Below are positions 3,801-58,285 of a DNA stretch of 64,000 nt, one piece after another. A program made the position numbers and the translations under genes. How positions within the stretch are numbered: the stretch's first letter is position 1; every line of letters starts with the position of its first letter. The notes beneath the pieces were generated by a model that had not been told where the DNA came from, did no database searches, and was given only the letters and a program-made list of their open reading frames with translations. The stretch lies in contig OZ360233.1 of NCBI GenBank assembly GCA_977017645.1, positions 110,422,001-110,486,000 of the forward strand, read 5' to 3'. This DNA is from Torpedo marmorata. Its lineage: Eukaryota.

Positions 3801-4643
3801 ATCGACTGAATTAGAATTAATCTGTAAAAATTCATGAATCTCTCTTCTCATATAGTTACAAAAATCCGGTCTTTTCAATAAAGAAGAATTAAATCTCCAT
3901 CTATATGTCATTTTCTCTTTTTCCGGAATTATACATGACATTATTAAAGGCGAATGGTCCGAAATTATTCTTGCTTTATATTCTATTTCAGTAACTCTAT
4001 CTTGTAAATGAGATGACAATAAAAACATATCAATTCTAGAGTAAGAATCGTGTCTAAAAGAATAAAAAGAATAATCTTTTTCTCTTGGATTCAACTTTCT
4101 CCAAATATCAACTAAATTCAAGTCCTTCATCAAAGAAAGAATTTTCTTTGCATTTTTGGTCCTAACTATTGATTTAGATGTTTTATCTAGTATAGGATCT
4201 AAACAACAATTGAAGTCCCCTCCAATTAGAATATTCTCATTTGCTTCTGATAAATGTAAAAAAGAATCTTGAATAAATTGTTCATCTTGCATATTTGGGA
4301 CATATATATTCATAAGTGTCCACATTTCCGAATATATCTGACAATTTACTAAAACATATCTTCCTGAAGCATCTAATACCATAGACTGTAACTTAAAAGG
4401 TAATTTTTTATTAATTAAAATAACGACTCCTTTTGCTTTAGAATTAAATGAAGACGCAATCACTTGACCAACTCAATCTCTCTTCAATTTCTGATATTCT
4501 ACATCTGTCAAATGCGTCTCTTGCAAAAAAGCAATATCAATTTTTAACTTTTTAATATATGCCAATGTTCTTTTCCGTTTAATCGGATTATTTAGCCCAT
4601 TTATATTAATACTTACAACATTTATTAATTTACTATCTGCCAT
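851..4643 (-). pseudogene. L1 ORF2 (APE endonuclease, RT, CCHC) with a premature stop near 4473 and a frameshift near 2277
   Basis: NINGLNNPIKRK, GGDFN, SRID, SDHSP, YRPISLLN, DAEKAFD, RQGCPLSP, LFADD, YLGI, CFRC..H..W.C. Confidence 0.95.
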
Positions 4644-4929
4644 TACTATTATTTAATAACTCTCTCCTCATCAGACCAGGCGGTCCCCCCTTCCACATTT
4701 GTAATAAATCTGACATCTCCTTAAACAAAGAAAAGAAAGAAAAAAGAATATTAAAAAGAAAAACTAAACTAAACCCTCTATAAAATAACTGGTACTACAC
4801 CAGTATAACCCCCCTCTTCTGTTCGGGAAGTGGCCCTCGCCACTAAAGTGGTGTGTGGCTAGGTACGGAGCAGACAAGAAAAAGTCCACCCCTCCCAACA
4901 GAATAAACATAACAATTAATGTCAATTCT

Positions 4930-6444
4930 TCATCCGAATGCAGCTTCTTCCAAATCCTTATTAACTTGTTCATCAGACAGCTCCTCAATCAACTCCACCA
5001 GTTCACCTTTTCTTGGACGTACTTGGAGGTTCTCGGACAAATGTAGCAAATCTTGAACAGATACATCAACAGGCTTGTTAACTTGAGAATATCCGGACCC
5101 ATCTTGATCTTGTTTTATATTCGGTAGACTATTAGCATATTCCAAAGCATCATGATAATTCGCAAAAAATTTTGATTGGTTGTCTTGCAATTGAATCTTC
5201 AATATTGCAGGATATCTAAAAGAAAATCTGTAACCCTTATTCCAAAGGATTGCTTTAGCTGGATTAAATCCTTTCCGATCTTTAATTATTACTGCACTTA
5301 AATCAGCGTAGAAAAACACTCTATTTTTATCAATAATCAATGGAGATTTCCTCTCTCTCGCGCTCTGAACTGCTAATCTCAAAATTTTTTCCTTATCCTG
5401 GTAACGAAGACATCTAATCAAAACTGAACGTGGCGTTTGTCCAGGAAATGGCTTCCTCCTATTGTCTCGGTGGGCTCTATCCAATTCAAGACCATAAGGA
5501 AAATTATCCTTACCCAGAATATCTGGGATCCATTTTTGAAAAAAATCAGTTGGATTTCGCCCTTCAAAATCTTCTGGAAGTCCCACAATCTTAACATTAT
5601 TTCTACGACTTTGATTCTCCAAAGTATCTACTTTTTGTAAGAGTTGATTTCTTTGCAATTCCCAGGCAGTAAATGTATTTTCCATTTTTTCCACTGTATC
5701 CTTACAATCCACCACTTCATTATGATATTCTTCAACATTATCTTCAACTTTCTGAACTTTCAATATAACTTTATCCACAACAGCAGCATATTTCTTCAAA
5801 TCATATTTAATATCTTTTATTTCTTCATTAAATTTTGTAAAATTAGTATCCATAGCTTTGAATCCATTCTCAATACGCTTATTCATTGTAGATACCTGTT
5901 CTGTAAAATAATTCAATGCTTGAACAAAAGTAGTTGAAACCTCTGTTTTTCCTTGCAACAAGTCAAATTCTTCTCCTTCACTAATATTTCCTTCCCCTCC
6001 CTCCATTTCTTCTGATCTTCTATCATCTTCCACAAAAAATATCTTCTTTCTTCCTTTTCCTTCTGAATCTGTTGAACCTGATGAAGATTCATCCTGTCCC
6101 ACGATGTACTGAATAGAACGGGACGACTTTACTTGGCTGTCAGCTGAAGTTGACAGCTCCCTTTGTGTTTCAATCGCGCGCGTCATTTCGCACATGCGCG
6201 ATACATCCGTCTCTTTCAGTAGTCCCGTTTTCTTCCGAGCACCAGCGCCATCTTCCCCAGCTCCCCGGGAGGACGGCGCTGGCGTCACCACAGGCTTACC
6301 CTGCCGCGTCTGCATCTTTCGTGGAGGGAGAGGAACTTCATCCCGAGGCTCCTTCAATACGGTAGGCCAACCTTCTTCTTGAACCCGATTTTCTTTAATC
6401 CCTGGTTTCTTTGTCTTCTGATCTTTGATTTTTCTTGTAGCCAT
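4930..6444 (-). CDS. L1 ORF1p (coiled coil, RRM, CTD; Transposase_22-like), intact
   Basis: Open ~504-aa frame from ATG at 6444 with a heptad-rich coiled coil, LENQSRRNNVKIVGLPE, RAHR and YPA motifs. Confidence 0.9.
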   Translation of the reverse strand: MATRKIKDQKTKKPGIKENRVQEEGWPTVLKEPRDEVPLPPRKMQTRQGKPVVTPAPSSRGAGEDGAGARKKTGLLKETDVSRMCEMTRAIETQRELSTSADSQVKSSRSIQYIVGQDESSSGSTDSEGKGRKKIFFVEDDRRSEEMEGGEGNISEGEEFDLLQGKTEVSTTFVQALNYFTEQVSTMNKRIENGFKAMDTNFTKFNEEIKDIKYDLKKYAAVVDKVILKVQKVEDNVEEYHNEVVDCKDTVEKMENTFTAWELQRNQLLQKVDTLENQSRRNNVKIVGLPEDFEGRNPTDFFQKWIPDILGKDNFPYGLELDRAHRDNRRKPFPGQTPRSVLIRCLRYQDKEKILRLAVQSARERKSPLIIDKNRVFFYADLSAVIIKDRKGFNPAKAILWNKGYRFSFRYPAILKIQLQDNQSKFFANYHDALEYANSLPNIKQDQDGSGYSQVNKPVDVSVQDLLHLSENLQVRPRKGELVELIEELSDEQVNKDLEEAAFG

Positions 6445-6581
6445 TCTTAGTTTCTTAACAAATACTTTTAGCAATCAGATGAGTTTTTTAAAATACAGTT
6501 TTTAATTAATTCTGTGGGAGGAGTGTAATTCCACGACTCCAACCTACGCCATCACGCCACGCCCCCCTCTTCGTTCTTCTT

Positions 6582-7500
6582 CTGTAACAGCACTGCACCC
6601 ACAGCTTCATCGATGGCATCCACGGCTAAAGAAAACGGCTGTTCTAAATTAGGTGACTTAAGCACAGGTTGGTGGCACAGCATGGCTTTCAATTTGACAA
6701 ATGCTTCCTGACAACCTGTCGACCATACAAATTTTTCTTTCTTTCTAAGCAAATTTGTGAGAGGGAGCGCAAGATCAGCAAAGTTTTTACAGAACTTGCG
6801 GTAGTAGCCAATCATTCCCAGGAACCTCTTCAGAGTTTTCTTACCAGTTGGAACAGGGAACTCGGAAATAGTCACAACCTTTGCCTCTACTGGCGCCAAC
6901 TGCCCCTGTCCTACAACATAACCCAGATAAATAACAGTAGCATGTCCAAACTCACTTTTACTTAAATTAACTGTGAGATTTGCTTTGGACAGTCGTTCGA
7001 ACAATTGTTTTAGCTCAAAGACATGCTCTTCCCAGGTCTCACTACTTACAATTAAATCATCAATGTAAGCACCTGTGTTTTTCAACCCTTGAATTACAGA
7101 ATTTATCATTCTCTGAAATGTTCCTGGAGCATTCTTCATACCAAAAGGCATAACATTATACTCATACAGCCCAAAAGGTGCTACGAATGCAGAAATCTCC
7201 CTAGCCCTTTTTGTCAAAGGAACACACCAGTACCCTTTTAATAAGTCAATTTTTGTAAGAAATTTGGCCTTCCCCTCCTTGTCTATACAATCGTCTATTC
7301 TAGGAATAGGATAAGCATCTGTCTTTGTTACAGCATTTACTTTCCTATAATCAGTGCAAAACCTAACTGTTCCATCAGGCTTATGCACTAAAACACAAGG
7401 GGAACTCCAATTGGAAGTAGACTTTCGAATGATATTGTTCTTTACCATGTAGTCAATTTCCTGATCTACCAGTTTGCACTTTTCCGCATTGATTCAATAG
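6582..7500 (-). pseudogene. Gypsy reverse transcriptase and start of RNase H
   Basis: SNWSSPCVLV, RFCTDYRKVN, KIDLLKGYW, MPFGMKNAP, YIDD, FLGMIGYYRKF. Confidence 0.93.
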
Positions 7501-9036
7501 GGATGCTGTTTTATCGGTCTTGCATCTCCTACATCCACATCATGATAAGCGATGGAAATTTTCTGAGGCACATCAGGAAATAAATTTATAAATTTTAAAA
7601 ATAACTGACTCAACTCTTCCTTTTCTGAAGTTTTCAGATGAGCCAACTTTGTCTCCAGATTGCGCAAAATCATGGAATTTTCTAACCTCGGGCTTATCAA
7701 TTTCTGTGTCCCATGACCCTCTCTGAAACTGGTTTCATCTGTCTCCTCCTTACCCTGATCAATAACCAGTACCTCTGGTAAATTTTCAGTCCCTTTGTGT
7801 GGTACCTGTTCAAAATATGTCTTAATCATATTCACATGACAGACCTGTGTGTCTTGTCTGCGATTAGGTGTTTCTATGACATAAGTGACATCATTAATTT
7901 TTGACTTAACTCTATAGGGTCCTGAATAACTAGCCCTAAGAGGATTTGAATGGATGGGAAACAGAACTAATACGTTCTCACCAGGTTTAAAAGTTCTCGT
8001 CTTAGCCTTTCGATCATACCAAACTTTCATTCTCTGTTGAGTGGCCTTTAAATTCTCCTTTGCCATCTCACAAGCCCGATGCAATCGATCCTTAAATTTT
8101 GAAACATAATCTAACAGATTTAAATGCACATCACTATTAATCTACTGTTCTTTTAATAATCTTAAAGGACCTCTCACCTCATGTCCGAAAACTAACTCGA
8201 ATGGACTAAAACCAAGTGATTCTTGGACAGACTCCCTCACTGCAAATAACAACAAATAAACCCCCTCATCCCAATCCTTTTCCTTCTCACAACAATAAGT
8301 TCTAATCATGTTTTTCAAAGTCGAATGGAACCTCTCCAAGGCCCCTTGACTTTCTGGATGGTACGCAGAGGATACAATCTGTTTAACTCCCAGTCTATCA
8401 ACCACTTGTTGGAAAACGCCTGACATGAAATTACTGTCCTGATCTGATTGAATTTCCCTTGGCAAACCTACCAAGGTGAAAAACTTTACCATAGCCTTTA
8501 CAATTGACTTTGCTTTAATGTTTCTCAGAGGAATGGCCTCTGGAAATCTGGTGGCTGCACACATAATTGTTAACAAATACTCATTCCCCGCTTTGGTTTT
8601 GGGCAATGGGCCAACACAGTCCACAATTACTCTCGAGAAAGGCTCACTGAAAGCAGGGATAGGTTGCAAGGGTGCCACCGGGGAACCCTGATTAGGTTTA
8701 CCCACCACCTGACAAGTGTGACAGGCCCGGCAAAAGCTTACAACCTCCCTTCTCAAACTGGGCCAATAAAATTGTTTCATTTTCTTCCTTATAGTTTTCT
8801 TCACCCCAAGGTGACCACCTAAGGGTGTACTATGAGCCAAAGTTATTATTGCATCCCTATATACTTTAGGGATCACAACCTGCTGCACTACTGCCCATTC
8901 TTCATTGGCAGGAACATCACATGGTCTCCACTTTCTCATCAACACCCCATCTTTTTCATAATAACCCACTGGCACCTTTTTAATCTCCTCTTCAGAGAGA
9001 ACCTTATCCCTCACCTCAGCAAGATCAGGATCGTCC
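7494..9036 (-). pseudogene. Gypsy integrase (HHCC zinc finger, DDE core, GPY/F C-terminus) upstream of RT
   Basis: H..GGHLG..CRACHTC, VDCVGPLP, SDQ, YHPESQGALER, GPY..HVNMIK. Confidence 0.93.
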
Positions 9037-11495
9037 CTATTTCATTATTAAATGTAGATTATAAGATAATGGCAAAAATTTTAGCAAATAGAATGGCTAA
9101 TTATTTACCAGATTTAATCCATGTAGATCAAGCTGGTTTTATTAAAAATAGATATTCAAAAGATAATATAGCTAGATTGATTAGCTTAATTAATTTACAT
9201 AAAAAGGAAGATTTACCATTAGTTTTAACTTTAGACGTTGAAAAGGCTTTTGATAGATTAGAGTGGAATTTTTTATTTAAGGTATTGGAGAAATTTGGTT
9301 TTGGAAATACATTTATTAATTGGATTAACACTATATATAAAGAACCATCTGCTAAAGTAGTTACAAATGGACAAATTTCTTCAAAATTTCCTTTGACTCG
9401 ATCTACTAGACAAGGATGTCCTTTGTCACCAGCATTATTTATTTTGGCGATAGAACCTTTGGCAGAATTAGTTAGAAAATATCCTAAAATAGTTGGTATT
9501 AAAGTTGGAATGGAAGAACATAAAATTAGTTTGTTTGCAGATGATGTATTGGTATATATGACAAAATCTATTACATCCTTAGTACAATTGTCTGTGTTAT
9601 TGAGAGAGTATGGGGAAATATCTGGATATAAAATTAATTCTGATAAAAGTGAAATTATGGCATTATCACAAGGGGTTATAGTAGATGTAAAGAAATTACA
9701 CAATTTAAATGGGCAAAGGAAGGAATTAAATATTTGGGAATAAGGGTTGATACAAAATTGGCTAATTTATATAAATTAAATTATCTACCATTATTTGTGA
9801 AAATAAAGAAAGATTTAGAAAATTGGAAAGATTTACCTATAACTTTAATGGGAAGAGTAAATTGTATTAAAGTGAATGTTTTTCCAAGAATTCAATATCT
9901 TTTTCAATCAATTCCTTATGGAATTCCTCAATTTTTTTAAAGATTTAAATTCAATTATTAGAACATTTTTATGGAAAGGAAAGTTAGCAAGAGTAGGTAT
10001 GGAAAAATTAACTTGGAATTATGAAATGGGTGGTTTACAACTTCCTAATTTCCAAAGTTATTATAAAGCAGCTCAACTAAAATTTGTTAATGAATTTTTT
10101 GATTCAACTAAATCTTCTGCTTGGATTAAAATAGAGTTAAATAATATAGGAGAAGATTCCAAAGAAGAAATTATTTATAAGTGGGATTCTAAATTAATAT
10201 CAACAAAAAAGAAAAATTCGCCTATTTTTAAACATTTGTTAGAAATATGGAATAAGACGGATAAGGAAATAGGAGGAAAAGGATTGATTTCTTCAAGGAT
10301 GCCTTTATATCAAAATGGACTTATTCCATTTACTATTAATAATCAATTATTTAAAATTTGGTTTCAAAAAGGAATTAAGAAGATTAATGATTGTTTTGAA
10401 GCTGGGAAATTTATTACTTTTCAAAGAATGAAAGATAAATTTAATATATTAGACAATACACTTTTGCTTATTATCAAATTAGAGCTTTTTTGATTGAGAA
10501 ATTAGGTTATGCTTTGATTTTACCAAGACAAAATGAATTAGAATTATTAGTTACTAATGGAGATGTTAATAAATTTATTTCTCAAATGTATAAATTGTTT
10601 CAGAGGAAAATGCCTAAAGTAGGATTGCATAAATCAAGATTAAAATGGGAATTAGATTTGAATGTAAGAATAGATGAAAACCATTGGAAAGAATTATGTA
10701 AATTAAGTATGACGAAGATTATTAATGTTAGATATAGATTAGTACAATATAATTTTTTTCATCAATTATATTTAACACCTAAAAAACTAAAGAAATTTAA
10801 TCCGACACTATCAGGTTTATGTTTTAGATGTAATAAAGAGGAAGGGTCTTTTGTACATTCTACATGGTTTTGTCCAAAAGTTTATGATTTTTGGTTGCAA
10901 GTTAAAAAAAATTTAGATAAAGTATTTAAGATTACATTTCCAATGGATCCTATGATATTTTTGTTTGCAGATATAAGAAAATTTAGTATTAGGATGAAAT
11001 TAAATATGTATCAAATAGAATTTTTGCGAATTGCTTTAGCTGTTTCAAAGAAATGCATTGCTATCACTTGGAAATCTGATTTAGATTTAGGATTAGAAAG
11101 ATGGCATGCAGAACTTCGTTCGTGTATACCACTTGAAAAAATTACTTATAATCTATGTAATAAATATCATTTCTTTTTAAAAATTTGGAGCCCATATATG
11201 AAAGCTGTTGGTTTAAGGATTTGAAGATCTCTGGATATCGTATCTACTGGCATACTTGACCTCCATAATAGAATTAGTTTATAGATTGGCATTCCCCTTA
11301 CTTTCTTTCTTTTTCTTCTTTTTCTATTTTTATTTTATATTTTTATTTTTTATTAGATTAGTGGGGTTGGGAGGGTTGGGGAGGGGAGGGAGGGAGGGTG
11401 GGTGAAAATGTATCACAAATAATTTGATAATTTTATATTCTATTTTATGTATTTTGTGATTTAAAAATTTTAAATAAAATATTTTTTTTTTTAAA
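9037..11495 (+). mobile_element. 5'-truncated L1 (RT and C-terminal part of ORF2, frameshifted) nested in Gypsy pol
   Basis: TSD AAGATCAGGATCGTCC at 9021-9036 and 11496-11511. Protein is closely similar to the 851-4643 ORF2. G-rich 3' UTR and AATAAA. Confidence 0.95.
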
Positions 11496-11511
11496 AAGAT
11501 CAGGATCGTCC

Positions 11512-13312
11512 TTTTGCCTTGCTATTAGCTCCTGTCGGGATAGTGACAAATCTGTGCCTTTCGGTGTCTTATCAGTGGATGGGTGTAATTCAGGAGATTG
11601 CTCAACCTTTTCTAGGTGTTCTTGATTATCACTGACTTTTTCTTTCACCAAGTTATTTTCCATTGCCTTCTCTACAGTGACATTTTTCTTAGACATGGCC
11701 CAGGTTATGGCACATGCCGGATAAATATCAGAGTCTTTCTCTGACTTATCAATGACTGGCTTAGTGGTCATTCGCACTGCAGGAACTACTTTACCCTTGG
11801 CCAAGTCATTACCTAGCAACAGTGAGACTCCTTCTACTGGCAACTCTGATCTCACTCCTATTATAAAAGGTCCTTCCACCAAGTCTGAGTCCAACACTAT
11901 TTTGTGCAAAGGAATGGACTCAACATCACCACCAATTCCTTTAATTAAATTTATGTCAGTAGCTTCACAAAATTCCAAGACACTATCTAACACAAGTGAC
12001 TGAGCAGCTCCAGTATCTCGCAAGATTTTCACTGGAACTTGTTTTGATCCTGCCTTAACTGAAACAAAACAATCAGTCACAGAAGGTTTAAATACATCTC
12101 TAACTTTGTCAGTAAATTGATCTCCTTCCTGGGTGTTATGCCTCTTCTCACTCTGAATACAAGCATTAGGTGTTGCATCCTTTTCTCTCTTCTTTTTCAA
12201 CACTGGACAGCTTGCTAGCATATGACCAGCCTTCTTACAGTAGTGGCAAATGGGACCCGAATGGTTTTCCCTTTTCCACTTTCCTTCATCCCTTTCCTTA
12301 ACACCACTTCCAAATTTACTTTCCACTTGCTTCTGATTATCCACAGTGACCTGTTGGAAAATTTTGCCTGACATCCACTTAGGCTTGTGGGTTAAAGCAT
12401 ATTCATCTGCTAACTTAGCTGAATTTTGCCAAGTTTTCACCTCCTTTTCATCTAAGTATGCCTTAATATCCTCAGGAACACACCTTTTTATCTCCTCGAT
12501 TATTATCAATTCTCTCAATTGATTGTAATCATCGTTTACCTCCTTAGATGTGCACCACCTGTCAAAACACACAACCTTTTCATAGGCAAACTCTGTATAA
12601 GATTGGGTTGCTGATCTTTTTAAATTTCTAAACTTCTGTCTATAAGCCTCTGGAACTAACTCATAAGCCTGGAGTATAGCCTTTTTCACCGTTTCATAAT
12701 CAGCAGCTTGCTCTGTGATAAGAGTAGAATAAGCTTGCTGAGCTTTTCCTTTTATTACACTTTGTAACATAAGAGATCATTGGTCTTGTGGCCATTTTAA
12801 TTTCACAGCCACTTTCTCAAAATGCTGGAAGTACTTATCTATTTCTGCCTCCTCAAATGGAGGAACCAACCTAACTTCTCTACTAGCTAAAAATCCCTCA
12901 ACAGGATGACGAATTTGATCTTGCTCTTCTTGTCTCCTCTCATTTTCCAACTTTATCTTTTCCAGCATATATCTCCTATTTCTCTCATCGTTCTCTAAGT
13001 CTAATTTCTTTTGTTCCATTTCCACCTCCAATTCTAATTTCTTTTGTTCCCTGGCTGCCTCCAATTCCAATTTCTTTATTTCCAACTGTATGTTTTCAGA
13101 AGGTTTACCCTTGGGAAACTGCTCTAACATGCTCTCCTCAAACTTTTTTCTTTTATATAGTATTTGACAATTTTTCTCCCAATCTCTGCCTTTTTCATTG
13201 ATGGTTTTACAGACGCAATGCCCAACTCTGTTGCTATATCCACTAACTGTTGCTTTTTCGCCTTTTTTAAAGTATCAGGTTCAGGTGATTCCAAAAATTC
13301 TCCTACATCCAT
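11512..13312 (-). pseudogene. Gag (SCAN-like capsid region, CCHC knuckle) plus aspartic protease
   Basis: VPPFEE..FEKVA..WP, AYELVPEAYRQKFR, CHYCKKAGHMLASC, LRDTGAAQS. One frameshift (~13135) and one stop (~12778). Confidence 0.88.
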
Positions 13313-18869: not shown

Positions 18870-19445
18870 TCATTGTATTTACTGCATCTGGTGCTCCCTT
18901 TGTGGCATTCTCTACATCGGAGAGACTGGTCGTAGATTGGGCGATCGCTTTGCTGAGCACCTCCTCTCCGTCCGCAACAACAGCGACCTCCCAGCAGCCA
19001 ACAATTTCAATTACGAGTCACACTCCCATGTCTGTCCATGGCCTTATGTACTATCCCACCCAAACTACCTGCAAATTGGAGGAACAACATCTCATATTCC
19101 GTCTCGGCACTCTCCAGCCAAATGGCATTAACATTGACTTTTCTGCTTTCCACTAAATCTGCTCGCCTTTTCCTTCCCCTCCCCCTTTCCCTGACCTTCC
19201 AGTTTTTCCACCCACCCAGCCATCCCTCCTCCCCCTCATTGCTGCTGTCCCCTCCCTTTCTCCACCTATCATCTCCTGCCTTTGCCACCCCCCTTCCCCC
19301 CTCACTCTTTTGTTCGGACGCCTGCCGGCATTTTCTCATACTTTGATGAAGGGCTCAAGCCCGAAACGTCGGTTATGTATTTCTACCTTTGCTACATAAA
19401 GGGCACTGTTTGACCTGCTGAGCTTCTCCAGCATTTGTTTTTACA
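18870..19445 (+). mobile_element. Penelope 3' fragment (GIY-YIG and 3' terminal repeat)
   Basis: IYCIWCSLCGILYIGETGRRLGDRFAEH. Closely similar to the reverse complement of 52600-53190. Confidence 0.88.
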
Positions 19446-21632: not shown

Positions 21633-23065
21633 TGTCGTCTTGCCGTCATGTTTAGTGTTTCCAAGCAACATCCAAAGCTGGGACATGCCTTATACATCAC
21701 TTTCAAGTTTTACATTGGGTTTACCTGTTGGTGCTCATGACTTGAGGAAAGTAGTTGGAAGGGTGCAGAAATGAGTGACTTTGAATGTTTTGAAATGCAT
21801 CTAAGCAACACTCTCTCATATGACCAGAAAGTATGCAGTGATCCCTTGAGTTAAACAAGAAAGTCTGCAGATGCTGGGGTCAAGTGCAATTTATAAAGGT
21901 GCTGGAGCAACTCAGCAGGTCACACAGCAACCAGAGGAAGTAAGAGGCAACCAATGTTTCAGGCCTGAGCCCTTCGTCTGGAATCTGGCAAAACAGGTAC
22001 TGTTTATCTCAGTTTAGAGATTCCACTACTGTCTAGCATCTAGCAATACATTGGAAGGAAGGGAATAAACAGGTATTGCCACTGGCCCTTGTCTGCAGAG
22101 AAAGAGGGGAATCTTGTTTTATACCTTCCTTTCCTGGTTGTTAAAGACCATGAAATCTCCCAATATTTCGAGAGCATATCCCTACTCTGAAATAAATTAA
22201 CTTGATTGTTGGAGAAAGCAACACTATAAACAATCATGCCCTCATTATAACAAAGCATATTTACTTAGCAAGACTCACATCCTAACAAAAAAATAAATGA
22301 ATACAATTAAACTGCATTGTATCAAACTTGAAGAGACCACAACTTTTCCTCAATAAATAAGAAATGGAAATCTTGCTTCAACTTGAGCTGGTGTTATCAG
22401 CACATGCTTCTGAGTAACTGGGATAGCTCAAGCTTGGGATTCACAGGTTTGTAACCAGCAGATGTAATTTTAATAATTTGTTGCACTTCTACATTATAAG
22501 ATAGGGAGTATCTTGAAGCACAATCTCATCAAACAGGAGTTATTCATACTTGCTGCTATTAATTTTGATTAGTCATTAAGCTACACAGCACAGAAACAGG
22601 CCCTTAGGCCCAATTCATTCATCCAGCCAAGCTGCCCATCTGAATTAGTCCCATTTGTCTGCATTTGCCCCATATCCATTGAACCCTTTCCTATCCATTT
22701 ACCTATCCAAATTTCTTTTAAATATCGTAATTGAACCCATCTCTACCACTTCCTCTGACAGCTTGTTCCATGTACACACCACGGTCTGTGTGGAAAAAGT
22801 TACCCCACAGGTCCCTTCTATATCATTCCCCACCTCACCTTAAACCTTTAGTTTTAGTTTCTAATTTTAGATTTCCCCTACCCTGGAGAAAAGTCTGTGA
22901 CTCTTCGCTTTATCTATGCCCTTCATGATGCTAATTCTAAGGTCGCCCATCAGCCTCCTTGACTCCAGTGGAGAAAATCCTAGCCTCTGCTTGTAACTCA
23001 AGCCTCCAGCCCTGGTAACAGTCTTATTTGCCCCCTTTCCAGTTTAATGACATCCATCCATAAAA

Positions 23066-30370: not shown

Positions 30371-32505
30371 CTCTCATATCCCCTTTAAACTTTAACCCTC
30401 TCACAAACCTATGTCCTCTAGTATTTGACCATTCCACCCTGAGATAAAGTCTCTGACCCTACCATAATTTTATATACTTTTCTCAGGTTTCCCCTCAGCC
30501 TCCAATACTCCAGAGAAAACAATTAAAGTTTGTCCAACCTCTCCTTGTAGCGAATACAATCTAATCCACATCATCCTGGTGAATCTCTCCTGCACCCTCC
30601 CCAAAGCCTCCACATCCTTCCTTTAATATGCATACAATACTCCAAGCGAGATCTAACCAAGCTTTTATACAGCTGCAAAACGAGTTGCCAACATTTGTAC
30701 TCATTGACAAGGCAACCATGCCGCACACCTTCTTTACTATCCTAACCACTCCTGTTGCCCTTTCAAAGGAGATGGGACTTGTATCCCAAAATCCCTCTAT
30801 ACATTAATTCTCCTTAAGTTCTTGCATCAAATACAAGAGGGTGGAAAAAGTATGAAGACAGAAAGCCAGAGGTGGACTATTTGAATCATGTAGACTACAG
30901 ACACTGCAATTTATTCTAGTTAAATAAGAAAGCCTGCAGGTGATTGTAGTTCAATGCACAAAAGTGGTGGAGAGCATCAGCAGGTCACGCAGCAAAGATA
31001 TATGACAAACGTTTCGTGTCCATGCCCTTTGTCAAGGTACGAGCAAAAAGCAGTCAGGATCCTGAATAAAATGGTGGGGGCAGTGGGAGGAGCGTAGGCC
31101 CACGGGCAAGAGGTCATAGGTGGATACGGGTGGGAGGGCAGAAGAGAAAAAAGCTGGGAAGTGATGGGGGAGGGGATAGCTCTCTAAATGGAGAGGGAAG
31201 GGGGTTGGGAGCTGGAGGAAAGGAATAGGGAGGGAGAGAGAGAGAGAGAGAGAGAGAGAAGGGCCTGAGGGAAACCGAAGATTCTGTTCTTCGTCTATAA
31301 ATTAATTTTATTAGTGAGCTTGAAACCTTCAAATTCCGCAGTCTTTCTTTTACATTTAATTTTTGTAAGCATTAATTCAGTAATTGTCATACTGTTTCAT
31401 GGAACAGTGGTTTTCCAGTTGTTCTATGTGTTGCCCCCTTTAAATGTACTTTTCCCACCCCTCCCCCCTCACTCCACACAAGTTCTAAGATCCGAAGAAC
31501 AACCACCCAAAATAAAAACAAAAATGTGATTTATGTGTACAACCAAAGAAATAATGAGTGGTAGGTTAACAAGCTAAAAGACACAGAAATACGAGTGATC
31601 CTTGGGGGTTCTCTACAGCACCCTCCTCACATCCCACATTGAGTATTAGTGCAAAAGAGGAAAGAACATCTTTCTGTTTTGTCAGTGAATCTGAAGCACA
31701 GGAAAGGTAAACAGTGCCTGACTCACTCAAGACGAGCCTTCCATTACAATGTCAACAATGTATGTTAGTTGTTCCCATCTCTTGGGTCTATTTGTCAACC
31801 CCTCCAGTGAAATTCGCAGTAGTCTAGACAGTATCCCCAAGACACCAGATTCAATATAAAATGAAACCATTGGCTGCTATTTCTTCCACATGAAGATCGA
31901 ACACACTAAATTCTCGCAGAGCCAAATGTCATGAAACCGCCCCATATTGTATCGTGCTGCATCTCAGAAAAGCACAGAGAGAAATTGATATGATCAGAAC
32001 TTAAGATAAAGGTGCAAAGGCAAAACAGCCAGAGCGACGGGCACAAACATTGCAAACTGCTGTCCTGAATCATGCAATTCGAAGCTCCCCCTCCAGTGTA
32101 ATCTTAGTGTGGTTTTCCCTCCTTTTGGAGGGAGAGGTGCAGAAAGCAAAATATCTTCTTCCAACCTAAATTTGGTTGTGTTGACATTGTAACAATATAT
32201 AGTAAATTCTTCGGCTACCATATTGCAAAACAGAGCAGGGGAAAAAGCTGAACTGACACAGGTCACAGTTCGTGGCATTCAAGAAACTAACTTGGTTGGG
32301 ATCAACTATTTGCAGAGTTTTAACATATTCAGCAAATGTCATAAAGGGTCATATCTTTATGAATGAATAATCAATATAATGAAACTTGTCTGGAAGTGGT
32401 TCATTCTTCACGGTTGACACCTTTTTGACTGACCCATAACTTTTACCCACATTACCCGGCCCATAGAAAAGTCCTGCTTTAAACCATTTACAAAGCTCAT
32501 AGATA

Positions 32506-32745
32506 AAAACACACAAAAATGCTGGAGGAACTCAGCTGGTCTTGCAGTGTCCATAGGAGGTAAAGACATATTACCGACGTTTCGGGCCTGAGCCCTTCCT
32601 CAAGGTAAACCTTGAGGAAGGGCTCAGGCCTGAAACGTCGGTAATATAACCATACCTCCTATGGACGCTGCAAGACCAGCTGAGTTCCTCCAGCATTTCT
32701 GTATGTATTACTACAATCACAGCGTCTGCAGACTTCCGTGTTTCA
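32506..32745. mobile_element. Palindromic Penelope-terminal-repeat mini-element
   Basis: ~100-bp inverted arms centred at 32607. Arms resemble the Penelope 3' end (CTGAGTTCCTCCAGC, GAAGGGCTCAGGCC.GAAACGTCGG). Confidence 0.8.
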
Positions 32746-33057
32746 ATTAAAGCTCAAAGTTATCAGAGGTTAAGTCTGACTCTGCTAGAAAATAGACACT
32801 AAGGATGCAATGTGAGGTTAATGCAATACAAGTATGTGCCAAATTCACATCTTTTCCTCACTGTCAGTAATCAGGTAGCATGAGCTATGCCCTTGATTGC
32901 CTTACCACAGGGCCCAGTTTTGTCAGCTCAAGCCAGCTTGTTTTGTTTGGTGTCTACAGATTTTCGTGATTTACTTGTGTTGTTTAAAGTCAGCCAGCAC
33001 CTCTTAAAGGGAAACCTATTTCAGCTTTCTGAAAAAAAACAGCAGATTAGAGAACAG

Positions 33058-33675
33058 ACGCCGCGGTTAGCGCAATGCTGTTAAAGCACCAGTGATCGGG
33101 ACTAGGGTTCGAATCCAGTGCTGTCTGTAAGGAGTTTGTACATTCTCCCCGTGTCTGCTAGGGGCATTTAAGAGACTCTGAGACAGGCACATAGATGAAA
33201 GAAAAATAGTGGGTTATAAGGTAGGGAGGGTTTAGTTTTAACATTGACTTTTCTGCTTTCCACTAAACCTGCTTGTTGTTCCCTTCCCCTCCCCCTTCAC
33301 CTGTCCTTCCTGTTTTTTTCCACCCACCCAGCCATCCCTCCTCCCCCTCTTTGCTGCTGTCCCCTCCCTCCTTTCTCCACCTATCATCTCCTGCCTTTGC
33401 CACCCCCCTTCCCCCCTCACTCCTTTGTTCGGACGCCTGCCGGCATTTTCTCATACTTTGATGAAGGGCTCAAGCCCGAAACGTCGGTTATGTATTTCTA
33501 CCTTTGCTACATAAAAGACACTGTTTGACCTGCTGAGTTCTCCAGCTTTTGTGTTTTTTACTTCAATCACGGTGTCTCCAGATTTTCGTGTTTACTTAGG
33601 GTTTAGTTTTTCTTTGGTAGGTGTGTGGGCCGAAGGGCCTGTACTGTGCTGTAATGTAATGTTCTCTGTTCTAAC
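33058..33675 (+). mobile_element. SINE with tRNA head and CR1-like tail, split by a Penelope insertion
   Basis: B box GGTTCGAATCC at ~33107. CR1-type tail resumes after 33610. Confidence 0.7.
33240..33597 (+). mobile_element. Penelope 3' terminal fragment with a 13-bp TSD
   Basis: TSD AGGGTTTAGTTTT at 33227-33239 and 33598-33610. Nearly identical to the reverse complement of 52571-52930. Confidence 0.88.
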
Positions 33676-33823
33676 ACTTTTGCATCTGATTTCCTTTCAG
33701 TCAACCAGAGAGAAATTGCTGCCAACGTTTTTCAAGATAATGGTATCCAAAGCCCAGTCATCGAAGCAGAGGGCTGCTGGAGTGTGTCAGCAGTCTCCTC
33801 CCATGCAAAATCATCAGCATGGA

Positions 33824-34068
33824 GTGAAACACGAAAGTTTCCAGATGCTGTGATTGTAGTCAAAACACAGAAATGTTGGAGGAGCTCAGAGTTTCGCAGC
33901 ACCCATAAGAGGTAAAGATATATTACTGATGTTTCAGGCCTGAGCCCTTCCTCAAGGTATTCCTTGAAAAGGGCTCAGGCCTGAAACGTTGGTGAACTAT
34001 CTTTACCTCCTATGGATGCTGCGAGACCAGCTGAGTTCCTCCAGCATTTCTGTGTTTTGACTACAATC
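33824..34068. mobile_element. Second palindromic Penelope-terminal-repeat mini-element
   Basis: Inverted arms centred near 33959. Same family as 32506-32745, opposite orientation. Confidence 0.8.
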
Positions 34069-36317: not shown

Positions 36318-36548
36318 TTTTTAAATTTACAGCATAGTAGAAGCCGATTCCGGCCATTGAGACCCATGCAACCCAACTATACCCAATTAACCTACAACCC
36401 CATACGTTTTTGAGGATGGGAGGAAACCGGAGAATCCAGGGAAAACCCACGCAGCTCACGACGAGAACATACAAACTCCTTACAGACAGCAAGGGATTTG
36501 AACCTGGGTCGTTGGGGCTGGAATAGCATCATACTAACCGCTACGCAA
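36318..36548 (-). mobile_element. V-SINE
   Basis: Reverse complement of the family; B box GGTTCAAATCC. Confidence 0.78.
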
Positions 36549-36555
36549 CTGTGGG

Positions 36556-37348
36556 TGGTCATTCCTGGTCCTCCTGAAGTCCATGATCATCTCCTTTGTG
36601 GACTTCAGGAGGACCAGAAATGACCATCTTCCACTACACATCAATAACTCTGTAGCGGAGAGAGTAGAGAGCACCAAGTTCCTTGGAGCCCAGTTAACTT
36701 GTGACCTATCGTGGATACACATCTCCTCACTTGTCAGGAAGGCACAACAGCGACTGCACTTCCTGAGAAGACTGAAGAGGGCAAGGCTACCGGCCACCAT
36801 CAAATCAACCTTCTACAGGAGCTCTATCAAGAGCATCCTGGCCAGCTGCATCACAGTGTGGTACGGTTGCTGCAGAGAAATGGATCGGAGGTCAATCCAC
36901 AGGACCATAAGAGTGGCAGAGAGGATCAATGGAGTCTCCCTCCCTCCCATCGACATGATCTACCGTGATCATTGTCTAAAGAAGTTGTGCAAAATCATTG
37001 AGGACCCCTTCCACCCCGCACACAGCATCTTTCAGCTGCTCCCGTCGGGAAAGAGATACAGGAGTATCAGAGCCAGCACCACCAAGCTCAGAAATAGCTT
37101 CTTTCTGCGGGCAGTGAGAATGCTGAACGACCAAAGGACCAAAGGAACTGCTCACACTAACTTTCATATTCACAAAACAATATTTATTCATTTATATGTA
37201 TGAATACTTGTCGTGCATACTGTATGTATTTTTGTTTGTATGTGTGTTATGTCTGGTTGTGTGTCTGACTGTTTTGTACAGAGGACCAGAGAGCTGTTTC
37301 ATCAGGTTGTATTTGTGCAATCAGATAATATTAAACTTGACTTGACTG
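36556..37348 (+). mobile_element. Rex1/Babar-like LINE 3' fragment with a 5' inverted duplication
   Basis: 206-aa ORF with DFRR..KFLG..KAQQRLHFLRRL..LLPSGKRYRS and a (CTTGA)n tail. Confidence 0.87.
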
Positions 37349-52570: not shown

Positions 52571-55500
52571 AAGTAAACACGAAAATCTATAGACACCGTA
52601 ATAATGTAGTAAAAAACACAAAAGCTGGAGAACTCAGCAGGTCAAACAGTGTCTTTTATGTAGCAAAGGTAGAAATACATAACCGACGTTTCGGGCTTGA
52701 GCCCTTCATCAAAGTATGAGAAAATGCCGGCAGGCGTCCGAACAAAGGAGTGAGGGGGGAAGGGGGGTGGCAAAGGCAGGAGATGATAAGTGGAGAAAGG
52801 AGGGAGGGGACAGCAGCAAAGAGGGGGAGGAGGGATGGCTGGGTGGGTGGAAAAAAACAGGAAGGACAGGTGAGGGGGGAGGGGAAGGGAACAACAAGCA
52901 GGTTTAGTGGAAAGCAGAAAAGTCAATGTTAATGCCATCTGGCTGGAGAGTGCCGAGACGGAATATGAGATGTTGTTCCTCCAATTTGCGGGTAGTCTGG
53001 GTGGGATAGTACATGAGGCCATGGACAGACATGTGAGCGTGGGAGTGTGACCCAGAATTGAAATGGTTGGCTACTGGGAGGTCGCTGTTGTTGCGGACGG
53101 AGAGGAGGTGCTCAGCAAAGCGGTCTCCCAATCTACGACCGGTCTCTCCAATGTATAGAAAGCCACAAAGGGAGCACCGGATGCAGTAGATAAGTCCTCT
53201 GGATGTACAAGTGAAGTGTAGTTTCACTTGGAAGGCCTGTTTGGGGCCCTGGACCGTGGTGAGGGGGGAGGTGTGGGCGCAGGTGTTGCACCTCCTGCGG
53301 GCACAGGGGAAGGTGCCGGGGGTGCGATGGGTGGGGAGGGACGAGTGCACGAGTGAATCGCGGAGGGAGCGGTCCCTACAGAAGGCCGAGAGGGGAGGAG
53401 AAGGAAAAATGTGTCTGGTGGTGGGATCCTGCAGCAAGTGCCGGAAATTCCGGCGGATAATGTGTTGGACGCGGAGGCTGGTGGGGTGGTAGGTGAGGAT
53501 GAGGGGTACTCTATGTTTGTTGCGTCTGGGGGCAGAGGGGGCCAGGGCAGATGAGCGGGAAATGGAGGAGATGCGGGTGAGGGCTGAGTTGATGGTGGTG
53601 GAGGGGAAGCCACGTTTGTGGAAAAAGGCAGACATTTCAGAAGATCTGGAGTGGAACACCTCATCTTGGGAACAGATGCGGCGGAGGCGGAGAAATTGAG
53701 AGAAGGGGATGGAGTCCTTGCAGGGGACAGGGTGTGAGGATGTGTAGTCCAGATAGTTGTGGGAGTTGGAGGGTTTGTAGTAAATGTCGGTGGAAAGCTT
53801 GTCTCCCGAGATGGAGACAGAGAGATCCAGGAAGGGGAGAGTGTTATCGGAGATGGACCAGGTGAGTTTGAGATCGTGGTGAAAGTTGGATGCGAAGTGG
53901 ATGAAGTTGACAAGCTCATCGTGGGTGCATGAGGCAGCCCCGATGTAGTCGTCGATATACCGGAGGAAGAGATGAGGGGTCTTGCCTGTGTAGGCTTGCA
54001 GCATGGATTGCTCCACAAAGCCCACAAACAGGCAGGCGTAGCTGGGACCCATGCGGGTACCCATAGCTACTCCTTTGATTTGGAGGAAGTGGGATGAGTT
54101 GAAGGAGAAGTTATTGAGAATGAGGACGTTCTGCCAGGCGGAGGAGGGTGGTGGTAGAGGGTGACTGGTCGGGTCTTTGGTCCAGGAAGAAGCGAAGTGC
54201 TTTCAGACCTTCTGTGTGGGGGATAGAGGTATAAAGGGATTGGACATCCATGGTGAAGATGATGCGGTCCGGTTCAGGGAATCTGAAGTCATTGAGGAGA
54301 TGGAGGGCATGTGAGGTGTCGCGGATGTAGGTGGGGAGGGATTGGACCAGGGGAGAAAAGATGGAGTCAAGGTAAGATGAAACTAGTTCGGTGGGGCAGG
54401 AGCAGGCAGAAACAATGGGTCTGCCCGGTTGGTTGGGTTTGTGTATCTTGGGTAGAAGGTAGAAACGGGCAGTGCGGGGGTGGAGGAGAATGAGGTTGGT
54501 GGCTGTGGAGGGGAGGTGACCGTAGGTGATGAGGTCGGAGATGGTGTTGGAGACAGTGGCTTGATGTGCTGTGGTGGGGTCCTGTGGGAGGGGTAGGTAG
54601 GAGGAGGTGTCTGAGAGTTGTCGACTGGCCTCGGCAAGGTAGAGGTCAGTGCGCCAGACCACAACCGCACCGCCCTTGTCTGCGGGTTTGATGGTGAGGT
54701 TGGGATTCTTGTGGAGAGAGTGGAGGGCAGAGCGTTCTGAGGAAGTGAAGATGGAATACGAGAGGGGGGTGGTGAAGTTGAGACGGTTGATATCTCGGCG
54801 GCAGTTGGAAATAAAAAGGTCCAGAGCGGGCAGCTGCCCGCGCGGGGTGTCCAGGAAGAGGAAGAAGGCTTGAAGCGGGAGAAAGGGTCTAGGATGGGGG
54901 GTGGAGAATCACGGTCATGGAAGTGAGCACGGAGGCGGAGGCGACGGAAGAAGAGTTCGGCATCATGGCGTGCGTGGAACTCGTTGAGGTGTGGGCGGAG
55001 GGGGACGAAGGTGAGGCCTCTACTGAGGACGGAGCGCTCCGTCTCAGAGAGGGGAAGGTCGGAGGGGATAGTAAAAACCAAGCAGGGTTTAGAATGGGGA
55101 TCGGTGTCGTGGAGGGTGTTGGGGGGAGGGGGAGGGTTGGGGGGGTCAGAGGGGGGAGGTGGAGGGTGGGGGAGGTTGGAGGGAGTCGGAGGGGGGAGGT
55201 GGAGGGTAGGGGAGGTAGGAGGGTGGGAGAGGGGGTTAGGGAGGGTAGCCTGAGAGAGGGGGGGGATGGAGGGACGGGAAGGGATGAGGTCTGAGGGTTG
55301 GGGAGGAGAGTGGGGCAGAGAGGGGGAGATGGGGGTGGAGTCGGGAGAGGTGCAGGAGGAGAGGGAAGGAGTAGTGAGGGGGATAGGTAAGTGGGATCTT
55401 GTTGCAGGATGAGGACTCCAGTGGCAGTCAGCGTGGGAGGCTCCAGCAGGTAACAGCCTGTGTCGGGAGTCGGCGGTGGAGGCATCGGGAACTCTGGTGA

Positions 55501-55610
55501 GTAGAGGCTCGGGGTCCGGGCTGGGGTGGGCGGCTGTAGCGTCGGGAGTGCCACAGTGTCGGCGCCCGGGGCGCGGGTAGGAGCAGGCGGCTGCGGCGTG
55601 TCTGAGGCTC
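52571..55610 (-). mobile_element. Penelope-like retroelement (Neptune-type), RT plus GIY-YIG, at least two frameshifts, 5'-truncated
   Basis: VLSRGLTFVP, KPADKG, FYLLPKIHKP, RPIVS, MDVQSLYTSIP, MGPSYA, RYIDD, Cys linker CARRRCNTC, LIYCIRC..YIGETGR. Confidence 0.93.
52678..52718 (-). ncRNA. Minimal hammerhead-ribozyme-like motif (variant core); identical copies at 19337-19377 and 33452-33492
   Basis: CAUACU-UUGAUGA-A-GGGCU-CA-AGCCC-GAAA-C-GUC-GGUUAUG. Confidence 0.55.
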
Positions 55611-56503: not shown

Positions 56504-58285
56504 CCGTATATTTCAGCGTATAAGTCAAGTCTTGAAACCCTCAAAAATCTCTCAAAAAACGGGGGTCAACTTATACGCCGGATATACTTTTGAGACCTTA
56601 AAATCAGCTCAAAAACCAGTCCACACCGATTCGGTGTATAAGTCGACCCTTGAAAACACGATTCGGCGTATAAGTCGACCCTTGAAAAACCAAAAAAAAA
56701 CCCGACTGCAACAAATTTTCATTGACATTTTTATTGAAAACAACAAGACATTTAGAACCCTTCAAAATCACTTTCGCTATCATCGTCTGAGGCAAAGATC
56801 TCGGCAAGCACATCAGGGGTCTCACTGTTTAAACAGTCATCGTACGGGTCGCAGTCTGTATCTGATGAGGCGTCTTCAGCTTCGTCGTCAGTGTCCCACA
56901 ATAAATCATCTTCCGTACCATCAATTGCACAAGAGATACCGCACTTTTTAAATGATTTTATTATAGTTTCTACTTTCACTTTGTCCCATGCCTTGAGCAC
57001 GAAGTCACACAGCACATCAAGCGATGCAGCACGCATTGCCCCGCCTTTTGTAAATGATTTTTCTGCACTCGTCATCCATGTATTCCACTCTTCACGCACG
57101 TGGTCTTTGAATGGCTTATTCAAGCAGACATCGAGAGGTTGCAATATAGACGTCAAACCACCCGGGATAACCGCCATGTAAGTATTATGTTGTGCTAATC
57201 TACTTTTAGTCTTCTCAGTTAAGTGGCTACGAAACATATCCCAGACCAGCAAACTCCGTTCCTTGCGTAAACCACCTGGCCGCCTGTTCCACACATTGTC
57301 TATCCATAGTTTTACACCATTTTCATCCATCCATCCTTTTTCATGAAAATGTACAAAAATACCTGCTGGGAAATTTATTTTAGGTTTAAGTTTGCGCTTG
57401 AAGATTACCATGGGTCTTAACTTTGTCCCATCGGCCATGCACGATAACACCACAGTAAACCTGGTCCTTTCATGGCCTGTACTCCTGGTTTGCACAGTTT
57501 TCACACCTTTCCATTCCACTGTTCTATTGCCTATCATGTCAAAATTCATGGGGGTTTCGTTCATGTTTTCAATATTTGCCAATGCAAACTTGTGTTTCTG
57601 CCGGTTACGTATAATAAACTGGAGAAAACTTACAACTTTATGATCAAGATCTTTTGGTAGTTTCTGAGCAATTTTAGTTTTTTGTCGTAAAACCAGATTT
57701 TTCCTGTTCATGAAACGGTTGCACCAGCCTACTGTAGCTTCAAAATCATTACTGAATTCTGGGTGCGACTTTGCCCAATTCAGTGCAAATGTTCTTATTT
57801 TATTTCGGGTGTCTATGTAGCAATCTTGCCTCTGTTCACGTACCCATGCTGCAACATGATTTTCCAACTCTGGCCAACGAGTGATTCCTCTTCTCATCGA
57901 ACATTGCCTTTTTGGTATTTTTCTTAAAGTATCTTCTTTCTTCCTCCAATCTCTTACCAACTTCTCGTATATATCAAATTTTCTTGCAGCAGCACAGTTG
58001 TTGGTTTTCTTGGCCATTTCTATAACTTTTAATTTAAAACTCGCCTCATACTTTCGTCGTTTCAATTGAGCCTCCATGATAACAATCACCTCCAGCCAAC
58101 GCCCAGCAGCTCAATCAGCGCGATCGTTGTGGGTCGACTTATACGCCGGTCAATGCGCAACATCTCAGGCATCGCGATTTTTGGGGATCGACTTATACGC
58201 CGGATATACAATAAAACCATTAAAATGAGGCTGAAAAAGGGGGGTCGACTTATCTGCCGGTCGACTTATACGCCGAAATATACGG
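56504..58285 (-). mobile_element. Full-length pogo-superfamily DNA transposon (DD35D, Passer/POGK-like)
   Basis: TIR CCGTATATTTC(A/G)GCGTATAAGTC at both ends, TA TSD, subterminal GTCGACTTATACGCCG repeats. Confidence 0.95.
56752..58089 (-). CDS. pogo transposase (BrkDBD, CENP-B-type HTH, DDE_1), uninterrupted ORF
   Basis: RRKYEASFKLKV, GWCNRFMNR, NMNETP, LVWD-x35-D(QPLD) and an acidic tail. Confidence 0.92.
   Translation of the reverse strand: MIVIMEAQLKRRKYEASFKLKVIEMAKKTNNCAAARKFDIYEKLVRDWRKKEDTLRKIPKRQCSMRRGITRWPELENHVAAWVREQRQDCYIDTRNKIRTFALNWAKSHPEFSNDFEATVGWCNRFMNRKNLVLRQKTKIAQKLPKDLDHKVVSFLQFIIRNRQKHKFALANIENMNETPMNFDMIGNRTVEWKGVKTVQTRSTGHERTRFTVVLSCMADGTKLRPMVIFKRKLKPKINFPAGIFVHFHEKGWMDENGVKLWIDNVWNRRPGGLRKERSLLVWDMFRSHLTEKTKSRLAQHNTYMAVIPGGLTSILQPLDVCLNKPFKDHVREEWNTWMTSAEKSFTKGGAMRAASLDVLCDFVLKAWDKVKVETIIKSFKKCGISCAIDGTEDDLLWDTDDEAEDASSDTDCDPYDDCLNSETPDVLAEIFASDDDSESDFEGF

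What the first reader, a model, noticed from the sequence alone, without database searches (positions are those of the whole stretch)
32506..34068. Palindromic mini-elements with a hammerhead-like core on each strand
Seen: two ~240-bp elements (32506-32745, 33824-34068) made of inverted copies of a Penelope-type terminal repeat, with no ORF. In the first, the minus strand reads UUACC-UUGAGGA-A-GGGC-UCAG-GCCC-GAAA-C-GUC-GGUAA, with a perfect stem I and a GUC site. The plus strand reads the same core with a shorter stem I. Established: Penelope pLTRs carry minimal type I hammerheads that can act as dimers, and retrozymes are non-autonomous PLE-related elements. Inference: this is a non-autonomous fold-back family whose RNA can form either a ~100-bp dsRNA hairpin or a ribozyme in either orientation. 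It could be mobilised by Penelope RT or act as a source of siRNAs against Penelope.
Basis: partly seen in the sequence, partly recalled or inferred. Interest (0 to 1): 0.7.

Follow-up and report, generated by a model that had tools for sequence, protein, structure and literature searches.

The report
Twin-primed Penelope palindrome stubs
These two 240-base mirror-image pieces are short leftovers of a very common Penelope-like jumping gene, each likely built anew when two DNA copies of the gene's end were joined head to head, so they are ordinary by-products and not a self-copying ribozyme family, although their joints cluster at the front edge of the ribozyme motif.

Summary
Both palindromes are real (arms 91% and 85-95% complementary). 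The arms are the terminal repeat (pLTR) of an endonuclease-bearing Penelope-like element; one arm carries the extra ~36-nt 'tail'. Only element 1 keeps the motif on both strands (1 of 59 palindromes); its core is UUGAGGA (U3 against G8) and the hairpin beats the ribozyme fold by 55-58 kcal/mol. Best reading: two cDNAs primed from the two cut target strands at the element's two start sites, joined head to head (never two tails in 45 pairs). Residual interest: joints pile up at the 5' edge of stem I, not at the cleavage site (679 against 69). One fixed-centre palindrome did multiply, but as cargo of a hAT-type DNA transposon. The inverted shape is in print; this scan has reported the same reading on other DNA several times.

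The parts
32492..32502 (+). Element 1, left copy of the target-site duplication (10 of 11 bases match the right copy)
32504..32606 (-). Element 1, inverted tail-less arm: pLTR end of Penelope-like subfamily A, ending at the inner start site
32571..32608 (-). Element 1, hammerhead-like motif on the minus strand (U3 core, 4-bp stem II, ACGU stem III, GUC, stem I 5 bp of which the last pair comes from the joint)
32607..32608 (.). Element 1, head-to-head joint; arms reach 11 and 10 nt upstream of stem II with about one extra base between them
32609..32709 (+). Element 1, direct arm with the plus-strand motif (core 32612-32639, stem I 3 bp)
32710..32745 (+). Element 1, one-sided ~36-nt tail (outer start site)
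   Evidence: tail defined in PMC8557442 and PMC11167929
32749..32759 (+). Element 1, right copy of the target-site duplication
33240..33597 (+). Separate 5'-truncated, non-palindromic copy of the younger subfamily B, with a 13-bp duplication (33227-33239, 33598-33610)
33822..33859 (-). Element 2, tail (element 2 lies in the opposite orientation to element 1)
33860..33960 (-). Element 2, tail-side arm; motif decayed (AUC site, no stem I)
33962..34064 (+). Element 2, tail-less arm; core has lost a base; target duplication weak, not established (score 5.5)
52571..55599 (-). 5'-truncated, frameshifted Penelope-like element (RT motifs, Cys-rich linker, GIY-YIG) of subfamily B; its pLTR is 72-76% identical to the arms

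Best explanation
Each palindrome is a very short insertion of an endonuclease-bearing Penelope-like retrotransposon, likely built anew when two cDNAs, primed from the two cut strands of the target, were joined head to head. Shown: the arms are the element's terminal repeat, copies sit between their own target duplications, one arm has the tail and the other ends at the inner site, centres differ from copy to copy, and both arms tend to end at the 5' edge of hammerhead stem I. Inferred: the enzyme nicks both strands about 11-16 bp apart; one end primes at the outer start site (tail arm), the other at the inner one (tail-less arm); both copy uncleaved RNA through the ribozyme motif for about 100-140 nt, stop near the first paired base of stem I, and are joined by repair with short overlaps or added bases. 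The product is likely a dead end that decays without selection; if transcribed it would form a hairpin that buries the ribozyme.
For: Parent link: long copies with the same end run upstream into RT/GIY-YIG coding sequence (tblastn, 10 of 29 loci hit in the stretch upstream of the arm, 55-70% identity in the four longest). Centres: 26 distinct (mirror images merged) in 30 elements, 52 in 56 loci; the commonest one, as an exact 25-mer, occurs once in the genome; 28 of 57 rows have added bases, 22 overlaps, 7 blunt. Census of 120 tiles (1.2 Mb): 135 insertions, 17 inverted pairs, in three subfamilies. Target duplications: score 8 or more in 16 of 30 against 13 of 870 shuffled pairs. Tail rule: one tail in 14 of 17 census pairs (2 none, 1 at a tile edge) and in 28 of 29 centre-selected loci (1 none); two tails 0 of 45, while single copies end 66 with tail and 40 at the inner site. 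No left-arm or right-arm lineage. Decay: CpG sites 0.25, others 0.05, alike inside and outside the motif. In vitro, a Penelope-like enzyme nicks and extends both strands, starts at two adjacent RNA sites that delimit the tail, and uses mostly uncleaved RNA (PMC11167929, parts 1-2 read). Positive control: where a palindrome was multiplied as a unit (hAT cargo), centre and private variants are shared.
Against: Twin priming is inferred from anatomy; no intermediate was seen. PMC3846280 (passages) explains the same head-to-head shape by self-priming on an antisense template. Arms of one copy are only slightly more alike than arms of different copies (0.092 against 0.097 non-CpG differences, permutation p 0.024), so 'both arms from one RNA' is weakly supported. 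Two centres recur three times each in 56 loci. Tight palindromes can lose their centres after insertion (general knowledge), and the hAT control has a wider loop, so it does not fully exclude this. 8 of 30 elements, element 2 among them, score under 6 for a target duplication. Two of 17 census pairs have no tail on either arm. The in vitro work is on a Poseidon-clade element, not this one.
Confidence: 0.72

Rival explanations
1. Independent insertions, but made by one cDNA that folds back on itself (or by self-priming on an antisense template) and copies itself.
For: Proposed in print for Penelope head-to-head joints (PMC3846280, passages). Stem I has a complement in the cDNA; joints of that snap-back geometry occur outside the hAT carrier (L226, L239, L240, L242-L244). 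11 of 19 arms that end exactly at stem I carry the base that snap-back would add.
Against: The second arm ends at the inner start site that single copies also use (11 of 14 one-tail census pairs; 40 of 118 single copies); a copied-back strand has no reason to stop there, and two tails were never seen (0 of 45). 28 of 57 joints hold non-parent bases. The same pairing can form between two cDNAs.
Confidence: 0.17
2. A self-propagating non-autonomous fold-back family: master palindromes are transcribed and reinserted whole, and centres diverge afterwards.
For: Many full-length look-alikes (40 of 40 scored places, 84-100% identity); lengths cluster near 240 nt; two centres recur; pLTRs can mobilise passengers in trans (PMC3846280, passages).
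Against: The full-length hits were selected by a palindromic query; an arm-only query gave 1 flagged inverted arm in 29 non-self loci. Centres are made of different lengths of parent upstream sequence plus added bases. No arm-specific variants apart from one CpG site. The recurring centre is exact only once genome-wide. Length clustering follows from a stop hot spot that single copies share.
Confidence: 0.07
3. Functional two-way ribozyme or hairpin RNA kept by selection (for example a source of small RNAs against Penelope).
For: Element 1 keeps the motif on both strands; predicted hairpin about -181 to -188 kcal/mol; roughly 14 inverted pairs per Mb would supply double-stranded RNA if read through.
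Against: 49 of 59 palindromes have no intact motif, 9 one, 1 two; CpG decay hits the cleavage triplet as hard as flanking CpGs; no two-sided stem changes among the commonest pair types of 57 census motifs; ribozyme fold 38-58 kcal/mol above the hairpin.
Confidence: 0.04

Closest known systems
EN+ Penelope-like insertion unit with inverted 5'-truncated pLTR, one-sided 30-40-bp tail and target duplication (PMC8557442 Fig. 2 legend and passages; PMC3846280 passages; PMC2377424 Fig. 1 legend)
   Same: Head-to-head inverted copy, tail on one side only, target duplication, hammerhead motif in the pLTR.
   Different: Here both copies are cut down to the pLTR end, so the whole insert is 240 nt; duplications are 11-16 bp against 8-10 bp in the rotifer examples; joints cluster at stem I.
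Minimal hammerheads of metazoan Penelope-like elements (PMC4209133, parts 1-2 of 4 read)
   Same: Type I layout, extra base before stem II, palindromic ACGU in place of stem III; that paper already notes pairs of motifs 100-700 bp apart on opposite strands.
   Different: U3 faces G8 (that paper describes C3-G8 and U3-A8; a natural U3/G8 core is quoted in PMC7151607, one passage); stem II only 4 bp; the two motifs are on opposite strands, so one transcript holds one motif and its antisense.
Non-LTR retrozymes (bioRxiv 10.64898/2026.07.22.740005, part 1 of 5 and passages)
   Same: Non-coding, pLTR-related, hammerhead-bearing, dependent on Penelope enzymes.
   Different: Retrozymes are head-to-tail tandem units with consecutive complete ribozymes; these are single head-to-head pairs with variable joints.
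LINE-1 twin-priming 5' inversions (recalled; no paper read on it here)
   Same: Second target strand primes a second cDNA; joints with overlaps or added bases.
   Different: In LINE-1 the two cDNAs cover different parts of the RNA; here both start at nearly the same place, so the product is a palindrome.

Membership tests
EN+ Penelope-like element insertion | End sequence belongs to an element with RT and C-terminal GIY-YIG | tested here: met
   Subfamily A loci run into coding sequence that matches the window's RT/GIY-YIG frame; GIY-YIG Pfam E 2.7e-4, 21.6 bits, just under the 22.6 cut-off; RT motifs read by eye; pLTR stands on both sides of the ORF in subfamily B
EN+ Penelope-like element insertion | Inverted 5'-truncated copy head to head | tested here: met
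EN+ Penelope-like element insertion | 30-40-bp tail at one end | tested here: met
   36 nt in element 1; one-sided in 42 of 45 scorable pairs
EN+ Penelope-like element insertion | Target-site duplication | tested here: met
   Element 1 10 of 11 bases; 16 of 30 against 13 of 870; weak for element 2
Neptune clade | Zn-finger-like linker between RT and EN; RT phylogeny | tested here: inconclusive
   Cys-rich linker seen in the window's element, as described for Neptune and Nematis (PMC8557442 passage); no tree built
Minimal type I hammerhead | Core CUGANGA/GAAA with a 3-8 Watson-Crick pair | tested here: not met
   U3 with G8 in element 1 and in 54 of 57 census motifs
Minimal type I hammerhead | Stems I and II, palindromic stem III, NUH site | tested here: met
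   Element 1, both strands; not element 2
Minimal type I hammerhead | Stem covariation | tested here: not met
   Only one-sided changes (G-C to G-U, C-G to U-G) among the commonest pair types of 57 motifs; the sample is closely related, so this is weak
Minimal type I hammerhead | Self-cleavage | not testable with these tools
   Needs a bench assay
Non-LTR retrozyme | Tandem head-to-tail units with consecutive complete ribozymes | tested here: not met
   Head-to-head single pairs
Self-propagating non-autonomous family | Shared centre and internal variants across copies | tested here: not met
   52 centres in 56 loci; no arm-specific lineage

The most novel reading that the evidence does not exclude
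The hammerhead fold, not its cut, sets where reverse transcription ends: a paired enzyme starts one cDNA at each of the two RNA start sites, both copy uncleaved RNA and are released at the first paired base of stem I (RNA start or cDNA snap-back), so these palindromes are a genome-wide fossil record of a 'strong-stop' step in Penelope transposition.
Probability: 0.3. Interest if true: 0.55.

Novelty: new member of a known kind. Interest (0 to 1): 0.27.

Why it matters
As objects the two palindromes are ordinary: dead-end stubs of an abundant retrotransposon whose inverted shape is in print. As a population they bear on an open question, how Penelope-like elements make inverted ends and tails: never two tails, and a sharp stop at the front of the ribozyme instead of at its cut site, are predictions that the existing in vitro system can test. 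Some 90,000 inverted pairs (rough extrapolation from 17 in 1.2 Mb) could also be a large passive source of double-stranded RNA, which is untested.

Tried and rejected
Rfam scan of the window: no hammerhead family, only sub-threshold microRNA-hairpin matches. Recurring centre as a hidden subfamily: one exact copy in the genome. The peak of 905 pairs at spacing 31-61 first looked like a fixed-centre sister family; 28 of 38 fetched places (chosen from the 50 listed) begin with one shared carrier end, and 9 of 12 carriers fetched at greater length have terminal inverted repeats and 8-bp duplications, so it is cargo of a DNA transposon. Cleaved RNA as template: no excess of 5' ends near the cleavage site (8 of 91 single copies, 4 of 26 paired arms; 69 pairs). 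Cap-derived G at the stop point: 3 of 19, no support. Splice acceptor as the cause of the stop: no shared upstream exon in the joints (by eye). Upstream pLTRs of long copies starting at the hot spot: not seen; the upstream pLTR was found in 7 of 30 loci in direct orientation, each reaching 228 nt or more upstream of stem II. RNA: no RNA holder listed; contigs of four runs from other organisms cover only the repeats and cannot show ends, strand or level. ARAGORN finds no tRNA between the elements. The paper on dimer cleavage of Penelope hammerheads (Lunse et al.) is not held; it may describe U3 variants, which stays open. Paper searches for Penelope with twin priming (3 listings, none about Penelope insertion by title or abstract start), for palindromic non-autonomous Penelope elements in sharks (8 listings) and for elasmobranch Penelope hammerhead palindromes (none) showed no description of this hot spot; subscription papers and Repbase/Dfam were not searchable.

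Full report
1. Observation. Both palindromes exist at the stated places. Element 1 has 101-nt arms, 91% complementary, 2 nt apart; element 2 is 84% identical and faces the other way. Each has one arm longer by about 36 nt. The motif quoted for element 1 is there, with corrections: the core is UUGAGGA (U3 against G8), the plus-strand stem I has 3 pairs, and the fifth pair of the minus-strand stem I uses a base from the joint. Element 2 has no intact motif. Rfam calls no hammerhead.

2. What the arms are. The window holds a truncated Penelope-like element at 52571-55599 with RT motifs, a Cys-rich linker and a GIY-YIG match just under the Pfam cut-off. Its terminal repeat is 72-76% identical to the arms and stands on both sides of the ORF in longer copies. 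Copies 90-94% identical to element 1's arm are mostly not palindromic (1 flagged inverted arm in 29 non-self loci; by eye three more have small inverted pieces and about 16 run on into a pyrimidine-rich 3' region), and several continue into RT/GIY-YIG coding sequence. So the arms are the pLTR end of a sister subfamily (A) of an endonuclease-bearing Penelope-like element, Neptune-like by its linker (no tree built). The genome is 6.2 Gb; a cartilaginous fish is suggested by recall and by earlier notes, not tested.

3. Family or by-product. A palindromic query returns full-length look-alikes (40 of 40 scored of 3809 candidates), but their centres differ: 26 distinct in 30 elements (one duplicate locus dropped, element 2 added). 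With 30 more rows picked only by pattern, 57 rows had two cores (3 did not), one locus was in twice, and 56 loci gave 52 centres; 28 rows have added bases, 22 overlaps, 7 blunt joints. The commonest centre is exact once in the genome. Left and right arms show no lineage of their own apart from one CpG site that mirrors the query. Target duplications of about 11-16 bp are present (16 of 30 at score 8 or more against 13 of 870 shuffled; 8 of 30 under 6, element 2 among them). In 120 tiles of 10 kb, hand-picked at round coordinates with 10 beside the window, 152 arm hits make 135 insertions, 17 of them inverted pairs, in three subfamilies and with turning points at many positions.

4. A natural control. 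Counting inverted pairs of one 11-mer by spacing gave 69, 905, 679, 214 and 83 places for 0-30, 31-61, 62-92, 93-123 and 124-154 nt (reversed controls 0-1). The 905 hide one fixed joint. Of 38 places fetched from the 50 listed, 28 start with the same carrier end; 9 of 12 fetched at greater length show terminal inverted repeats and 8-bp duplications. So one palindrome was multiplied as cargo of a hAT-type DNA transposon, and there centre and private variants are shared, unlike in the class of elements 1 and 2. Its loop is wider, so it is an imperfect control for centre instability.

5. Mechanism. PMC11167929 (parts 1-2 of 4 read) shows in vitro that a Penelope-like enzyme nicks and extends both target strands, starts at two adjacent RNA sites that delimit the tail, and uses mostly uncleaved RNA. 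Here single copies end at either site (66 tail, 40 inner, 10 other, 2 edge), but pairs have one tail in 14 of 17 census pairs (2 none, 1 edge) and 28 of 29 centre-selected loci (1 none); two tails were seen 0 of 45 times against about 39% expected under free choice. I infer that the two target ends each prime one cDNA, one per start site, and that repair joins the two 3' ends. The rival in print is self-priming (PMC3846280, passages); it does not explain why the second arm ends at the inner start site, but snap-back-shaped joints exist and I leave it 0.17. Arms of one copy are only slightly closer than arms of different copies.

6. The stop point. Of census copies that could be scored (105 of 118 single, 31 of 34 paired arms), 16 of 78 single copies and 13 of 17 paired arms at risk ended in the 20 nt upstream of stem II, against 0.06-0.11 per 20 nt in the flanking bins for single copies (Fisher p 0.0014 and 7e-7, window chosen after seeing the data). 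A constant-stop model fails on the genome-wide spacing counts, with or without the transposon cargo. Among palindrome arms that reach the first paired base of stem I, 19 of 34 end exactly there, while 39 of 41 long copies keep the parent base; the next base is T in 11 and G in 3 of 19 (loci were selected for joints near here). The cleavage site shows no excess. So the template was uncleaved, and copying ended at the front of the motif. Whether this is the RNA's start or a release caused by stem I forming in the cDNA is open; the lack of G gives no support for a cap.

7. Ribozyme or hairpin function. On either strand the antisense arm precedes the motif, and keeping the ribozyme fold costs 55-58 kcal/mol in element 1 and 38 in element 2. 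Of 59 palindromes, 49 have no intact motif, 9 one and only element 1 two; 20 of 60 arms keep GAAACGUC, and CpG decay is the same inside and outside the motif. Stems show only one-sided changes. PMC4209133 (parts 1-2 read) reports low activity even for dimers and notes motif pairs on opposite strands. A natural U3/G8 core is quoted in PMC7151607 (one passage). Expression and small RNAs could not be tested.

8. Known and new. The inverted pLTR, one-sided tail and duplication are described (PMC8557442, PMC3846280, PMC2377424: passages; PMC6765202: passages). These are not retrozymes (bioRxiv 2026.07.22.740005, part 1 and passages: tandem units). My searches showed no paper on twin priming or a stem I stop in Penelope elements; supplements were not opened and the dimer-cleavage paper was not held. 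This scan has reported the same reading in other genomes and the hot spot and U3 core in this genome; I had the reading before looking, and took from those notes the pointer to PMC3846280 and the cap test.

9. Verdict. Real feature, ordinary origin: new member of a known kind, interest 0.27. The population statistics (tail rule, stop at stem I) are the part worth testing.

Noticed in passing
L279-L290 (G000:C1, e.g. 101828100-101832200); L211-L241: A non-autonomous DNA transposon of hAT type (15-bp terminal inverted repeats, 8-bp duplications in 9 of 12; about 1.1-2.0 kb; type named from recall of these features) carries, about 100 nt from one end, a fixed-centre Penelope palindrome with one hammerhead motif in the loop; sublineages have private variants, one a 5-nt insertion in stem II, and different interiors. 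About half of the 905 pairs.
   Followed up: partly
L283, about 900-1500 nt after the carrier start: In one sublineage of that carrier (L283 and L284 align over 1.6 kb) the interior holds what looks by eye like a decayed actin-related coding fragment; not tested.
   Followed up: no
window 52571-55599 (-); loci L249-L278: Young Penelope-like subfamily B (copies 97-98% identical over the stretch searched) with a Cys-rich linker and a variable array of roughly 42-nt repeats in the 5' part of its ORF; L255 and L256 lie 2.7 kb apart in opposite orientation.
   Followed up: partly
census loci: U3 facing G8 is the norm in subfamilies A (18 of 18) and B (33 of 33); C3 appears only in the older group C (3 of 6).
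   Followed up: partly
window 33057-33239 and 33598-33675: SINE-like repeat (recalled resemblance; no tRNA called by ARAGORN) split by the subfamily B fragment.
   Followed up: no
window 19305-19442, 21848-21978, 30918-31039, 32949-32976: Further single, truncated copies of the same pLTR group.
   Followed up: partly
window 36556-36626: Unrelated 28-bp inverted repeat with a 15-nt loop, inside a stretch whose frame (36538-37203) matches a LINE-type C-terminal domain model (PF09004).
   Followed up: no
window 56752-58110 (-): Open 452-aa frame with Brinker DNA-binding, Tc5 HTH and DDE_1 domains (pogo/Tigger-like transposase).
   Followed up: no
window 851-13274: AT-poor-to-mixed run of long minus-strand frames, one with endonuclease and RT domains (2277-4472); LINE-like, the others unassigned or not scanned.
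   Followed up: no
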